DNA of 64,000 nt from Octopus vulgaris (lineage: Eukaryota), in the NCBI GenBank assembly GCA_951406725.2, contig OX597814.1:110608001-110672000 (forward strand), read 5' to 3'. A program made the translations under genes and the position numbers. Position 1 is the stretch's first letter, and each line of letters starts with the position of its first letter. This document shows, piece after piece, positions 25,387-63,283 of the stretch. The notes below the pieces were generated by a model. The model did not search any database. It worked only from the letters and a program-made list of their open reading frames with translations, and had not been told where the DNA came from.

Positions 25387-26260
25387 GTAATTGCTCTTTC
25401 ACTATTATTTATTCATCTCTTGAATATTATTTGAATTGTAGACTGGAACTATGTCAGACATCATACTGAACATCATCTGCCTCAGGTGTTCATGTTAACC
25501 CCTTCCTCACCATATTCCTCTTGAAATACACTGCCTTTGTTTAAATTAATTTTGTGAATAACAAAGAATTTAACAAAAACAATTTTGTCAATATTAAGCT
25601 GGTGATTGGAACATAAATTAACATGCCAGTGTTGCATGACCGGACCATTTAAGAGTACCCCTGATGTGTTGGGTAATATGATATGCTTGAGAAGACCTGT
25701 TCAGTCAAGTAAAACCAAAATCGTAGCTGTGGCCAGTGCCCCCTGACGGGCTCCTATTCCAGTGGCATGTAAAATGCATCATCCGAACGTGATTGATGCA
25801 AGGACTGCCTGACTGGCTCCTGTGCCGGTGACATGTAAAAAGCACCATTCAAATGTGGTAGATGCCAGGTCCACCTAACTGGCTCCTGTGCCGGTGGCAA
25901 GTAAAAAGCACTATCCGAACGTGATCAATGCCAGGACTGCCTGACTGGCCTCCATGCCAGTGACATGTAAAAAGTACCCACAACACTCTCAGAGTGGTTG
26001 GCGTTAGGAAGGGCATCCAGCTGTAGAAACACTGCCAGATCAGATTGGAGCCTGGTGCAGCCGCTGGCTCTCCAGACTTCAGTCAAACCATCCAACCCAT
26101 GCCAGCATGGAAAACGGACGTTAAATGATGATGATGATGATCACTTTAAAACATTGTTTGTACCAGATGTTTTACTCTGTTTTACTTTTCATTAATATGC
26201 TAATTATTTTTTATTAACATTTAATTAAGTTCTTACTTCATGCATTTGATTATTTTCCAG

Positions 26261-26443: not shown

Positions 26444-26835
26444 GTAAGATATATTCATCATCATCATCATTATTATCATTTAACATCTGTTTCCATGCTA
26501 GCATGGATTGGACTGTTTGACAGGAGTTGGCACCAAGGTTCCAATTGTCTGTTTTGGCATAGTCCCTATGACCGAATGCCCTTTCTAACACCAATCACTT
26601 TACAGAGTGTACTGGGTGCTTTTTATGTGACACTAGTGCCAGTGCTTTGTACATGGCACTAGATCCAATGCTTTTTATATGGCACTAGCACAGGTGCTTT
26701 TTATGTGGCACCATCACGGGTGCTCTGTATGTTGTTGTTTTAACTTTTAGATATGTTTGTTTATATTAAGTCTGTTTCCATCTGTAGCGTTAAATATATA
26801 AACCTTGCATTTTATAGAAAACTGAGTTTATAACT

Positions 26836-27143
26836 TTACGGAGATGTACTTGCATAGCAAGTGACCTGATCTGAGATCGTGTGCTGGAATGAAAACAATT
26901 GCAGCGTGGAAGGTGTTTATAAGCCATTTAAGAAACACGCAAAAACCGTTAGATTCACTCAACATTTAAATTTAATTTGTCAAAATATTTTCGTCACTTT
27001 GAGACTGCGACCTGTTCACTGAGCACGGAATTTTGTCAGTGAACAGGTCGTGGTCTCAAAGCGACGTAAATATTTTGACAAATTAAATTTAAATGTTGAA
27101 GTGAATCTAATGGGTTTTGTGTGTTTACCTTCCAGGCTGCAAT
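26836..27143. mobile_element. Palindromic PLE-type element, family 3, carrying variant-core hammerhead motifs
   Basis: 13-bp TSD tgagtttataact (26823-26835, 27144-27156); about 90-nt near-perfect inverted core. Confidence 0.75.
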
Positions 27144-29219
27144 TGAGTTTATAACTACTACAAACTATTTGTGTGTATGTGTGTGGTAATTAAATACAGG
27201 CTTGTTATAGTGTAATATAATTGTTTCATATTAAGACTGTACCTGCAACCACATAGTTGGGAAGCGAGTTTCTAAGTCACACCACCATACCTGCGCCTAC
27301 ACAGTCTGTGTGTAGTAGTCTGCTGCTCATTGCAATACGATTTGGATTGCCTCCCTTGATCCTCTTTGACTCCACTCCCATCCAGCTTTTGAGTGACATT
27401 TTGTTTATTTAATATAATCTGGTATGTTTATACATGTGTAGCAGCTGCTTCATCTCATTATGTTTTTATGTCATAAGTAATGCACATGACATTTGTAATT
27501 CCTCCCAGAATCCTGGTGAAAGTTGATGTACTTCATGTTCAGTGTCAATGTCTCTTGACTGATGCCTGATGTATGTTGTGTATCATGGTAAAATTTGTTG
27601 TATAATGTGAGTGATACGAAGGATTGAATATCATATGTGATATCAAAAATACTTGTATATTGTATGTGATATCAAATATTGCTGTATATTGCTTGTGTAC
27701 TGTGTACCATATCAAACTAATGGAAACATAGTGTAGATGTAAATACTAAAATAACGTGTCATACCTAAAGATGAGTTTAATAATAATGATAATAATAACA
27801 ATCCTTAAGGCAGCGAGCTGACAGAATCATTAGCACGCCAGGCAAGATGCTTAGTGGAATTTTGTTTTTTATGTTCTGAGTTCAAATTCTGCCGATGTCG
27901 ACTTTGCCTTTCATCCTTTCGGGGTTGCATACTGGGGTCGATGTAATTGACTGGCTGCCTCCCCCCAAATTTTGGGCCTTGTGCCTAGAGTAGAAAAGAA
28001 TAATAACAATCCTTTCTGCTAAAGGCCTAAAATTTTGGGGTAGGGGACTAGTTGATTACATCAACCCCAATATTTCACTTGTACTCTATTGACCCCTAAA
28101 GGATGAAAAGCAAAATTGACCTCAGCAGAATTTGAACTCAGAGCGTAAAGACAGACAAAATTCCACTAAGCAATTTGCCTGGTGTGCTAACGATTCTGCC
28201 AACGTGCTGCCTTAATAATAATAATAATAACAATCCTTTCTACTGTAAGCACAAAGTCTGAAATTTTTGGGGGTTGGGTGCTGGTGAATTGCATTGACCT
28301 GTGGTCAACCAGTATTTAATTCATTGACCTCAAAATGCAAAGCTGAGCACAACAGAATTTGAACTCGGAACATAAAGATGGCATGCTAATGATTCTGTCT
28401 GCTCACCTCGTTAATGATAATCATCATTATCATCATTGTTGTTTAACGTCCATTTTCCATGCTGGCATAGGTTTGACTGGGGACTGGCAAGCCGTGAGGC
28501 TGCACCAATCTCCCGTCTGATCTGACAAGGAGATTGATGCCCTTCCTAACTCTGATTGTGTAGTGAATGCTCTTTACATGCCACCGGCACAGGAGCCAGG
28601 CGGACACTAGCAACGATCACATTCGGATGGTGCTTTTTACATGCCACTGACATGGGAGTCAGTCAGGGGGCACTGGCCCCAGCTACGTTATTGGTTTTAC
28701 TTGACTCAATAGGTCTTCTCAAGCATATCATATCGCCCAACGCATCAGGAGTATTCTAAACAGGGCTGGACATGTGTGACTGCGATCTCACTTTAGTTGC
28801 CGGGTCTTCTCAATCACAGCATATCTCCAAAGGTCCTGGTCTCCTGTCATTGCCTCTGTGAGGCCCAATGTTTAAAGGTCATGATGATTATAATAATGGT
28901 TTCAAATTTTGGCACAAGGCTAGCAATTTTGGGAGAGAGAGTAAGTCGATTACATTGACTCCTAGTGCTCAATTGGTCCTTATTTTATTGACCCTGAAAG
29001 GACAAAAGGCAAAGTCAACCCTGGCAGCATTTGAATTCAGAATGTAAAGTCAGAAGAAATGCAATTAAGCATTTTGTCTGGTGCGGTAACAATTCTACTA
29101 GCTTACTACCCTAATTAAAATAATTACAACAACAACATAATGTGAGCAGTTATAATGTTCTTACCAGTACCTCCAGTTGTCAAAGTTTCTAATCATTCCC
29201 TGTTTTTCCTTCATTGCAG

Positions 29220-41384: not shown

Positions 41385-42299
41385 TTAAAAGATAAATGGG
41401 ATAATGGCCTTACGCTTTTTTGGATAGTTTTTGAATTCTTTCCTGCTGTTAGAGAGTTTGGCGCGGGCCCAGACGGCCATCTGATACAAACCGGCAAGAG
41501 CAAAAAGTTGAGCAGGTAAGCACTGGGTCATTATAGAAAAGGATTGCCAGGCAATATATTCATAGGTGTAGTTAGGACAGGCTACCAAGCTAAACAGCCA
41601 AGTAAAAGGATTTGTTCCGGGATATGGGATCATACGAACTTTGGAATTTTTCGGCCGTAAGTTTCTGAATGCGAGGTGAATAGAAAAGTTTCCAAGTTCA
41701 GCCAGAATGAATCCAGTCAAAGCGCCATAGATTTGTAGGTCGCCAAACATTGGGGGTGTGTAGAGAGGATGGTTCACGTAGTAAGCGACGAAAGCAGCGA
41801 AACCCCAGTAGTAAAACGAATTCTTAAAGATGTTACGAATTGGCATGGTTGCATGAGAGAAACGGTGTACGAATAGGGTTTCCAATAAACGTTTGACAAA
41901 ATGGAATATATAGCAACCGGCAGCAAGGTTCACGACAAAATCTTTCGGATCATTAGCAGCATCAACATCATAGATGAATGAAGGACGCATGTAAAATATA
42001 GCGTAAATGACAGGAGGACCAGCATATTCAGTTAGGAAGACTGTTGTCCATCCTACTTGTGGACCAAGGTCTTTAAAATAGAGGACAGCCTTTTTATCAA
42101 ACCCTAAAGTCGATAAAGTTTCCTCGTCGCGTAAAATTCGCCCGCGTGGTTCTTTGCGGAATGAATGTCTTGCCAGAGAAAGTTTGGAATTAAGCTTCTT
42201 ATATTCAAGTTTAACATCATGGATTGTTGATGACTGTTTCAGTGAACTAAAAGAAATAATACTTTTCCCGGTTTTGGCATTAATAATATCCACTTCCAT
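41385..42299 (-). CDS. TECR: Very-long-chain enoyl-CoA reductase (TECR/Tsc13, steroid 5-alpha-reductase family), intronless, 304 aa
   Basis: Ubiquitin-like N-terminus; motifs FKDLGPQVGWTTVFLTEYAGP, KRLLETLFVHRFSHATMP, YYWGFAA, GNFSIH, CPNYTYE and C-terminal IIPFIF; start context ACCATGG. Confidence 0.97.
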   Translation of the reverse strand: MEVDIINAKTGKSIISFSSLKQSSTIHDVKLEYKKLNSKLSLARHSFRKEPRGRILRDEETLSTLGFDKKAVLYFKDLGPQVGWTTVFLTEYAGPPVIYAIFYMRPSFIYDVDAANDPKDFVVNLAAGCYIFHFVKRLLETLFVHRFSHATMPIRNIFKNSFYYWGFAAFVAYYVNHPLYTPPMFGDLQIYGALTGFILAELGNFSIHLAFRNLRPKNSKVRMIPYPGTNPFTWLFSLVACPNYTYEYIAWQSFSIMTQCLPAQLFALAGLYQMAVWARAKLSNSRKEFKNYPKKRKAIIPFIF

Positions 42300-42820
42300 G
42301 GTAATTGGCGAGAGGAAGACTTGGGACTTCGACAGAAATCGAACAAAGCGACAGGATTACGGCTGCCGAAGAAGCTACGTTAGGATACAAAGCAATAGTT
42401 TCGGAGGATATCTTTGTGGAGAAACTTCAAGTTAATGTCGTTTTGGGAAAATCTTTCTTAAATACACTGATATGAAATCAGAAATATTATTCTTTTCTGT
42501 TTTGAGAAGTCATTAGAAAAATATGAATACAAAATATTGAAACTTTAGAATACTTGCCTTCGCATTTTTTAAACAAAAATCTGGACAGTGAAATTAAAGG
42601 GAGAAAATTGCTAGAATGAATAGATTGCTAAGTAATGATTATATTTAGAGTTATTCCCACTTAACGTAAAAGAATTCAAGGGGAAAATCTTCATCAATAT
42701 AGTCGTGGTCATCGTCGTCTTCTTCTTCTTCTTCTTCTTCTTCTTCAAGCCCTGTCCCTCCAGAGCTAACCAATGATCAAAAGCAGCTTTTTTTTCTCTC
42801 TCATTCATAATGCATTGAAG

Positions 42821-62417: not shown

Positions 62418-63283
62418 GGTACATTTTGGTTATCTCACCTCATTAAAATAATTGGGTTACCTCCCACCGTTTTATGAGAAATGCCGGTACTTTTGGTTAT
62501 CTCCCTTAACTAGGAAAATTATTTAACCCTTATTAAAACAAAAAAGCGAAAATGAAAAGATGAAACATCTTATTGAATCTGATATTTTTATAACAAATCA
62601 TACAAAACTAAAAAGATTAATAAACATGAAAACTGAAAAAATTAAACATCTTACTGAATCCGATAACATTTTTATAATAAATCAGACCATGCCTATTGAG
62701 GAAGCCAAACGTCAAAAATGTGCTGAAGTATTAAACCTATTTCTTCACTACCCACAAAGGGCTACACACAAAGGGGACAAAGAAGGCCAGACAAAGGGAT
62801 TAAGTCGATTACATCGACCCCAGTGCGTAACTGGTACTTATTTAAACGACCCCGAAAAGATGAAAAGCAAAGTCGTCCTCAGCATAATTTGAACTCAGAA
62901 CGTTAAAGACAGACGAAATACCTATTTCTTTACTAACCACAAGGGGCTAAACACAGAGAGGACAAACAAGAATAGACAAACGGATTAAGTCGATTACATC
63001 GATCCCCAGTGCGTAACTGGTACTTATTTAATCGACCCCGAAAGGATGAAAGGCAAAGTCGACCTCGGCGGAATTTGAACTCAGAACGTAACGGCAGACG
63101 AAATACGGCTACGCATTTCGCCCGGCGTGCTAACGTTTCTGCCAGCTCGTCGCCTTGCAGTATTAAATCAAAAGGATTTCATCCAATCTCTTGTCGCCAC
63201 ATAAACTCATTTTTTTAGTGGGAGATAACCCAGTTTTTTAATGGCAATTTTTTAATGGGGGTGAGATAACCAAAAAGTGGCGG
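62418..63283. mobile_element. TIR element with a 9-bp TSD, containing nested young SINE copies (about 62733-63156, -)
   Basis: ttttggttatctcacc..ggtgagataaccaaaaag inverted ends; ATTATTATT on both flanks. Confidence 0.6.

What the first reader, a model, noticed from the sequence alone, without database searches (positions are those of the whole stretch)
26836..27143. Palindromic retro-insertion carrying a hammerhead ribozyme with a swapped G3:C8 catalytic core
Seen: the right arm (27032-27082, +) reads UUUGUCA-GUGAACA-G-GUCGU-ggucucaaa-GCGAC-GUA-AAUAUU-U-UGACAAA. The left arm (26976-27022, -) reads UCA-GUGAACA-G-GUCGC-agucucaaa-GUGAC-GAA-AAUAUU-U-UGAC. Together they give a full type I hammerhead topology: 7-bp stem I, 5-bp stem II, GAA, a self-palindromic stem III (AAUAUU) and a UUU cleavage triplet. 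The core is GUGAACA instead of CUGANGA, so C3 and G8 are both exchanged. Known: positions 3 and 8 form a Watson-Crick tertiary pair that tolerates compensatory swaps, and minimal hammerheads with a palindromic stem III that work as dimers are typical of Penelope-like elements. Inference: this is a natural covariant-core ribozyme family that CUGANGA-based searches would miss. The element has a 13-bp TSD.
Basis: partly seen in the sequence, partly recalled or inferred. Interest (0 to 1): 0.85.

Follow-up and report, generated by a model that had tools for sequence, protein, structure and literature searches.

The report
Penelope hammerhead with swapped core pair
This palindrome is two head-to-head end fragments of a Penelope-like jumping gene whose thousands of copies carry a hammerhead-ribozyme motif with two paired core letters exchanged (G3:C8) where sister families keep C3:G8; the family motif likely still cuts RNA slowly but this is untested, and this particular copy is probably dead.

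Summary
Observation confirmed. Window 26836-27143, between 13-bp target duplications, holds two head-to-head copies of a 209-nt unit with thousands of genomic matches. The unit is the terminal repeat of a GIY-YIG/RT Penelope-like element (PLE): it follows the ORF and 3' UTR and runs on into the ORF start. G3:C8 is the family state (58 of 63 arms, none C3:G8) and persists in a young ORF-intact subfamily where only loop 2 changed. Related PLE families in the same genome and an outgroup carry the same motif with C3:G8, with compensatory stem changes, so this is a natural, derived covariation. I found no published natural G3:C8 hammerhead (one key paper unavailable); this scan noted two similar motifs on other DNA. 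Cleavage is untested. Against it: 5' ends of copies do not pile up at the cut site, and a sister family thrives with A9C. An excess 5' G suggests short copies are reverse transcripts of capped, uncut mRNA ends. The window copy is likely inert (A13U; truncated stem I; opposite strands). New variant of a known kind.

The parts
26823..26835 (+). Target-site duplication, left copy (13 bp)
   Evidence: family TSDs cluster at 10-14 bp
26836..27022 (-). Left arm: PLE terminal unit positions 22-209, 5'-truncated, with tail
   Evidence: 94% to a representative copy, L047
26836..26895 (-). 60-nt tail (unit 150-209), between the two preferred 3' ends; it is the start of the PLE ORF
26836..26927 (-). First ~30 codons of the PLE ORF (ATG at 26927-26925)
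   Evidence: same ATG opens the ORF in tandem copy L276:5334
26976..27022 (-). Hammerhead motif, left: core, stem II, GAA and stem III intact; stem I 5' strand cut to 3 nt
27022..27143 (+). Right arm: unit positions 8 to about 150, no tail, 18-nt deletion after 27126 that removes the ATG
27032..27082 (+). Hammerhead motif, right: 7-bp stem I, G3-U-G-A-A-C8-A9, extra G, 5-bp stem II, G12-U13-A14 (private A13U), AAUAUU, U17; predicted cut between 27075 and 27076
27144..27156 (+). Target-site duplication, right copy

Best explanation
The insertion is two head-to-head, 5'-truncated copies of the terminal repeat of a GIY-YIG/RT Penelope-like element, and that repeat carries a minimal type I hammerhead motif whose C3:G8 pair has been exchanged to G3:C8 in this lineage; the family motif likely still self-cleaves slowly as a dimer or with protein help (untested), while the window copy is probably inert. 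Shown: copy family, linkage to the ORF, the swap as family state, C3:G8 in sister families, the two 3' ends, the fixed 5' end, the excess 5' G. Inferred: a Pol II promoter (TATA-like run near -30) starts a capped mRNA 23 nt before G3. The PLE protein nicks AT-rich DNA on both strands and starts reverse transcription inside its own ORF at about +150 and +208. Running to the capped end, it yields short cDNAs with an extra G. Two such cDNAs join 5' to 5' and give palindromes with one tailed arm, as here. In full-length tandem transcripts the two motifs would pair through AAUAUU and cut after UUU, releasing unit-length RNA that may circularise and template the long ORF+UTR copies.
For: Unit directly follows ORF and 3' UTR on the same strand in L236, L238 and in 6 of 6 long-ORF loci L274-L279. 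In L276 it runs on into the ORF. The protein has RT motifs (read from the translation) and GIY-YIG over the Pfam cut-off. G3:C8 in 58 of 63 arms sampled downstream of the motif, none C3:G8. Old versus young subfamily: 5 fixed changes in 9 loop-2 positions, 0 in 42 stem/core positions (the loop changes may be one event). Family B (57% aa), family C (L312, EN remnant upstream) and outgroup L310 (41% aa) all have C3:G8. Over 13 motifs the 3/8 columns pair in 13 of 13 (CG 8, GC 2, UG 2, UA 1), 5 pairs change on both sides, and 0 of 500 shuffles reach the covariation score (related rows, not a p-value). Of 11 invariant core positions only 3 and 8 differ, and they stay complementary (about 1 in 165 for two random hits, my arithmetic). 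The C3G/G8C double mutant partly restores cleavage in a PLE hammerhead (PMC11167929). 5' G: 299 copies versus 113 with A or T, where the element templates C or T; L1 shows the same cap-derived G (PMC11702581). One tailed arm in 25 of 29 palindromes (hand count).
Against: No cleavage data. Only 2 of 97 arms begin at unit 60-64, the predicted cut site, against 49 at 1-12, so inserted copies come from uncut RNA. The young subfamily of family B has C at position 9 in 78 of the first 100 listed matches, so core damage is compatible with high copy number. Hammerhead mutants do not affect insertion in vitro. The AAUAUU duplex is barely stable (-0.2 kcal/mol). Stems and core are not significantly more conserved than the rest of the unit outside loop 2 (0 of 42 versus about 6 of 141). 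Reaching G3:C8 needs two transversions through intermediates that are dead in vitro, which implies a period of weak selection. Only 2 G:C rows, from one lineage, support the swap.
Confidence: 0.62

Rival explanations
1. The motif descends from a hammerhead but no longer cuts. The fold is kept for another job (5' UTR structure, protein binding, promoter) or by short divergence time, and the complementary 3/8 state is a relic or a structural requirement only.
For: No 5' ends at the cut site. Successful sister subfamily with A9C. Hammerhead dispensable for insertion in vitro. Weak stem III duplex. Low activity is reported for all metazoan PLE hammerheads.
Against: All other core positions are intact across two subfamilies while loop 2 changed. 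The only two core changes are mutually complementary. The double swap is functional in an engineered PLE hammerhead.
Confidence: 0.32
2. A chance look-alike inside a foldback element (MITE or miRNA-like hairpin), unrelated to hammerheads.
For: Rfam returned only below-threshold miRNA-hairpin matches. Single arms fold no better than shuffles (z -1.6 to +0.9).
Against: 44 of 94 sampled insertions are single arms. The arms are unequal. The unit sits behind a PLE ORF. Sister families have the canonical CUGANGA core in the same frame.
Confidence: 0.02
3. On the side point of the 5' end: the short copies come from a spliced RNA. The upstream ACTAAC...pyrimidine...AG is an intron acceptor, as in D. 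virilis Penelope, and the extra G is the end of exon 1 rather than a copied cap.
For: Long copies have a branch-point-like word, a pyrimidine run and AG just before the unit. The Penelope intron ends at helix I.
Against: No base is conserved upstream of the G in 30 of 30 copies examined, so exon 1 would be only 3 nt long. A TATA-like run lies about 30 nt upstream. No splice joint could be seen, but the laid stretch began only 70 nt upstream, so this is not a real test.
Confidence: 0.15

Closest known systems
Minimal type I hammerheads of metazoan PLEs (min-HHR; Cervera and de la Pena 2014, PMC4209133)
   Same: In the pLTR; extra nucleotide between 9 and 10.1; G10.1-C11.1; GAAA; palindromic stem III; U17 common; opposite-strand pairs 100-700 bp apart; mostly solo truncated copies.
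   Different: G3:C8. The rows of their Fig. S3 alignment that I read are C3:G8, U3:A8 or U3:G8, none G3:C8. The extra base is G, against their consensus H, though G occurs in two published rows.
PAc (Poseidon, Anolis) hammerhead and tail mechanism (Frangieh et al. 2024, PMC11167929)
   Same: Two internal RT start sites in the ORF 5' end define the tail; both strands are primed; AT-rich targets; uncut RNA is the template; engineered C3G/G8C is partly active.
   Different: Here the swap is natural, the tail is 60 nt rather than 30-40, the ORF starts downstream of the motif, and the protein has a cysteine linker before the EN.
Natural core variants of hammerheads (Perreault et al. 2011, PMC3088659)
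   Same: Natural covariation at positions 3 and 8.
   Different: They report U3:A8 only in the passages read.
Neptune/Nematis clades of C-terminal EN+ PLEs (Craig et al. 2021, PMC8557442)
   Same: RT followed by a cysteine linker and GIY-YIG; partial tandems; inverted 5'-truncated copy; tail; (TA)n bias.
   Different: Clade not placed by a tree here; the octopus families listed in that paper's supplement are Naiad and Hydra types.

Membership tests
PLE minimal type I hammerhead | Stem I of 4-7 bp closing the motif | tested here: met
   7 bp in family A; two pairs change on both sides across families
PLE minimal type I hammerhead | Literal CUGANGA core | tested here: not met
   GUGAACA; 0 of 63 arms C3:G8
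PLE minimal type I hammerhead | Watson-Crick pair between 3 and 8, with U4 G5 A6 A9 | tested here: met
   G3:C8 in 58 of 63 arms; paired in 13 of 13 motifs across families
PLE minimal type I hammerhead | Extra base 9/10.1, G10.1-C11.1, stem II | tested here: met
PLE minimal type I hammerhead | G12 A13 A14 A15.1, U16.1, H17, palindromic stem III | tested here: met
   family majority; not met in the window's plus arm (A13U)
PLE minimal type I hammerhead | Located in the pLTR of a PLE | tested here: met
PLE minimal type I hammerhead | Self-cleavage after position 17 (dimer or protein-assisted) | not testable with these tools
   indirect test by copy 5' ends gave no excess at the site
Rfam hammerhead families | Covariance-model match | tested here: not met
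   no hammerhead among 20 matches at E<=10
EN+ Penelope-like element | One ORF with RT and C-terminal GIY-YIG | tested here: met
   1025-aa frame in L274 with RT motifs read from the translation, GIY-YIG 25.5 bits; homologs named RT-domain proteins; Pfam has no RT hit
EN+ Penelope-like element | Partial tandem pLTRs, inverted 5'-truncated copy, optional tail | tested here: met
Neptune or Nematis clade | Zn-finger-like linker before EN and RT phylogeny | tested here: inconclusive
   cysteine linker (CX3CX2C) seen; no tree with reference elements was built
Non-LTR retrozyme | Short head-to-tail tandem units each with a hammerhead, no ORF | tested here: not met
   copies are solo or head-to-head and belong to a coding element

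The most novel reading that the evidence does not exclude
An active, naturally selected G3:C8 hammerhead: a transposing PLE lineage crossed a two-step fitness valley in the ribozyme's catalytic base pair, helped by U17 (which avoids a G3-C17 mispair), and such swapped cores form a recurrent class that descriptor and Rfam searches miss. Its thousands of capped, 5'-end-only copies would also record in vivo that PLE reverse transcription starts inside the ORF on both target strands.
Probability: 0.45. Interest if true: 0.68.

Novelty: new variant of a known kind. Interest (0 to 1): 0.5.

Why it matters
The 3:8 pair positions G8, whose 2'-OH is essential for catalysis. The G:C swap was known as an engineered partial rescue; in the papers searched, nature had shown only U3:A8. 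A high-copy natural G3:C8 family, with near-identical C3:G8 sisters in the same genome, gives a ready matched pair for asking whether PLE hammerheads are under selection for cleavage, which is an open question. It also shows that CUGANGA descriptors miss whole families, which bears on reports that some PLE clades lack hammerheads. The anatomy of the short copies supports the internal-initiation model of PLE insertion with genomic counts.

Tried and rejected
Rfam scan: only below-threshold hairpin matches, including mir-317, taken as chance. The 781-aa GIY-YIG family first found is not the parent: its one match to the unit, in L204, is a separate nearby insertion. A pile-up of 5' ends at the cut site was sought and not found; the starts at unit 65-78 (8 of 97) sit at a TTAAATTTAA palindrome. 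Apparent within-family covariation in stem II is CpG decay and was not counted. A U3:A8 subfamily in this clade is not established: the TA rows are mixed with TG and CA singles. Expression: no RNA holder listed; the runs laid were contigs of uncertain kind, so no start, end or strand could be read. Those contigs, from four organism labels, cover the motif and list no variant at 4% or more in the core, but 5 rows were hidden and an 80% likeness filter applied, so this is weak. The metagenome scan gave 2 loci of 66 candidates, one ending before the motif. No PDB relative. In 26 of 30 loci found by protein (L244-L273) the motif was not within the 1.5-kb flank; it lies about 1.5 kb downstream, so most were cut off; 4 of 4 that reached it had G3:C8. 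Lunse et al. on PLE hammerhead variants (PMC5785218) is not held and was not seen; it may list such cores. Supplement file 1 of PMC4209133 and part 3 of file 2 were not read.

Full report
Observation. A 308-bp insertion at 26836-27143 lies between 13-bp direct repeats. It consists of two unequal arms joined head to head at 27022. Each arm carries a hammerhead-like motif on its own strand. The plus arm has a full 7-bp stem I but GUA for GAA; the minus arm has GAA but only 3 nt of the stem I 5' strand. Single arms fold no better than shuffles, and Rfam gives no hammerhead match, so the case rests on comparison. The host is probably an octopus: the best named homolog of the element's protein is from Octopus vulgaris (58%), and the window's SINE-like repeats look octopod (recalled, not tested).

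The family. The arm is a 209-nt unit. Two short patterns give 2184 and 3737 exact genomic matches, against 0 for reversed controls (these count arms, not insertions). From loci L001-L175 I took 314 arm hits, dropped 56 duplicates and 45 arms of a secondarily amplified composite, and kept 213. Part of that sample was chosen by motif-containing queries, so I recounted in the 97 arms from loci anchored downstream of the motif: of 63 that span it, 58 are G3:C8, 5 have a single change and none is C3:G8; 47 have all 11 core positions intact. The 3' ends are bimodal: 47 arms end at 204-209 and 39 at about 150 (14 of these read as 134-136 through an alignment artefact). The 5' ends stop at a fixed limit: 49 of 97 start within positions 1-12. 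Of 94 insertions, 50 are palindromes and 44 single arms; 23 have a 10-14 bp duplication, 10 have other lengths, and 61 sit in simple repeats or gave none by my crude search. In 25 of 29 palindromes one arm has the 60-nt tail and the other lacks it (hand count).

The parent element. Five sampled copies shared sequence upstream of the unit, and that extension has 964 matches at one mismatch. Following it upstream led through about 1 kb of microsatellite-rich 3' UTR to a GIY-YIG domain on the same strand. A protein search returned frames up to 1025 aa; all 6 long-ORF loci fetched carry the unit downstream. [quoted passage not shown] In L276 the unit precedes the ORF as well, and the tail is simply the first codons of the ORF. 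This is the architecture described for EN+ PLEs (PMC8557442, passages) and for the PAc tail (PMC11167929, parts 1-2 of 4). The linker points to Neptune or Nematis; I built no tree.

Is the swap a real covariation? The young, ORF-intact subfamily differs from the older one at 5 of 9 loop-2 positions and at none of 42 stem and core positions (47 young arms; the loop change may be one event, and the rest of the unit differs at only about 6 of 141, so the contrast with the rest is not significant). A sister family B (57% aa over RT-EN) has the same motif at the same place with C3:G8. A pattern that excludes G3 and C8 gives 4739 matches against 3 for the control. Of the first 100 listed, 18 have A9, 78 have C9 and 4 have T9. 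Family C (L296/L312) has the same inner stem I and the same stem II 5' strand as ours, with N7=A and U17, and differs in the core only at 3 and 8; it lies 370 nt behind an EN remnant of the same clade. A metagenome relative at 41% has C3:G8 too, so G3:C8 is derived. In 13 aligned motifs (13 of the 16 small loci plus family A and B examples were available; I used 10 small loci and 3 examples), columns 3 and 8 pair in every row, five pairs change on both sides, and slid structures score far lower. Caveat: the G:C state is one lineage, two rows, and several small-locus rows are old decayed copies.

Does it cut? Not tested. For: the only two changed core positions are complementary; the engineered C3G/G8C double mutant partly restores cleavage in the PAc hammerhead and in model hammerheads (PMC8495972, passage). 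A G3-C8 variant is said to work better without C17 (PMC3884650, passage, data not shown there), and family A has U17 where old family B has C17. Against: 2 of 97 arms start at the predicted cut site; family B's young subfamily is abundant with A9C; the AAUAUU duplex is marginal; metazoan PLE hammerheads are slow and dispensable for insertion in vitro. I put slow dimer- or protein-assisted cleavage at about 0.6. The window copy is almost certainly inert: A13U on one arm, truncated stem I on the other, motifs on opposite strands, and a predicted -167 kcal/mol hairpin for any read-through transcript.

How the short copies arise (inferred). Long copies template C or T just before AGATG (42 of 42), yet short copies have G there 299 times against 113 for A and T together in an AT-rich genome, with nothing conserved further upstream in 30 copies. 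An extra 5' G marks copying of the mRNA cap in L1 insertions (PMC11702581, passage). A TATA-like run lies about 30 nt upstream. The simplest reading: transcription starts 23 nt before G3, the protein starts reverse transcription at one of two sites inside its ORF, as PAc does, and runs to the cap. Priming on both target strands gives two cDNAs that join 5' to 5'. A splice-junction origin of the G is less likely but not excluded.

Comparison with what is known. Everything except the swap matches the minimal hammerheads of metazoan PLEs (PMC4209133, parts 1-2 of 4 and parts 1-2 of supplement file 2). Natural 3/8 covariation is published as U3:A8. Six full-text searches for a natural G3:C8 core or an octopus PLE hammerhead of this kind found only engineered mutants; subscription papers are largely missing and Lunse et al. 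(PMC5785218) could not be read. Two earlier notes of this scan describe G3-C8 motifs behind PLE RTs in other genomes; I did not check them, and they are not independent support. Other papers consulted: PMC6765202 (passages), PMC3088659 (passages), bioRxiv 10.64898/2026.07.22.740005 (part 1 of 5).

Verdict. It is a new natural variant of a known ribozyme in a known kind of element, with activity unproven. Interest 0.5.

Noticed in passing
L280:6384-6433 (+), L281-L286, L293; Sister PLE family B (1312-aa frame with a long Asn-rich insert) has C at hammerhead position 9 in its young, abundant subfamily (78 of the first 100 listed matches), while older copies keep A9.
   Followed up: partly
L183, L185, L186, L189, L194, L200, L284: Other hammerhead-like motifs in this genome with U3:A8 and an ACAUGU palindrome, some downstream of a 781-aa GIY-YIG PLE family; also a canonical motif with a long stem III in L187.
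   Followed up: no
L064, L065, L076-L078, L091, L106 and others: One palindromic copy (unit 8-147 / 28-209) was amplified again inside a larger repeat that shares at least 700 bp of flank; 45 of 258 arms sampled.
   Followed up: no
L096:1603-1946: 343 bp between the two arms include a stretch that reads like a C2H2 zinc-finger linker (motif recalled), possibly a host RNA captured by template switching at the 5' end.
   Followed up: no
L206:1-720: A truncated ORF of a different PLE family is joined directly to this family's 3' UTR: a nested insertion or a chimera.
   Followed up: no
window 41385-42356 (-): Intronless 323-aa frame with TECR_N and Steroid_dh domains (trans-2-enoyl-CoA reductase-like); single-exon gene or retrocopy.
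   Followed up: partly
window 25732-25978, 26615-26732, 27779-28440: 26-bp and 66-bp tandem arrays and inverted SINE-like repeats flank the insertion; they look like common octopod SINEs (recalled).
   Followed up: no
window 62735-63106: Two tandem 185-bp units, SINE-like.
   Followed up: no
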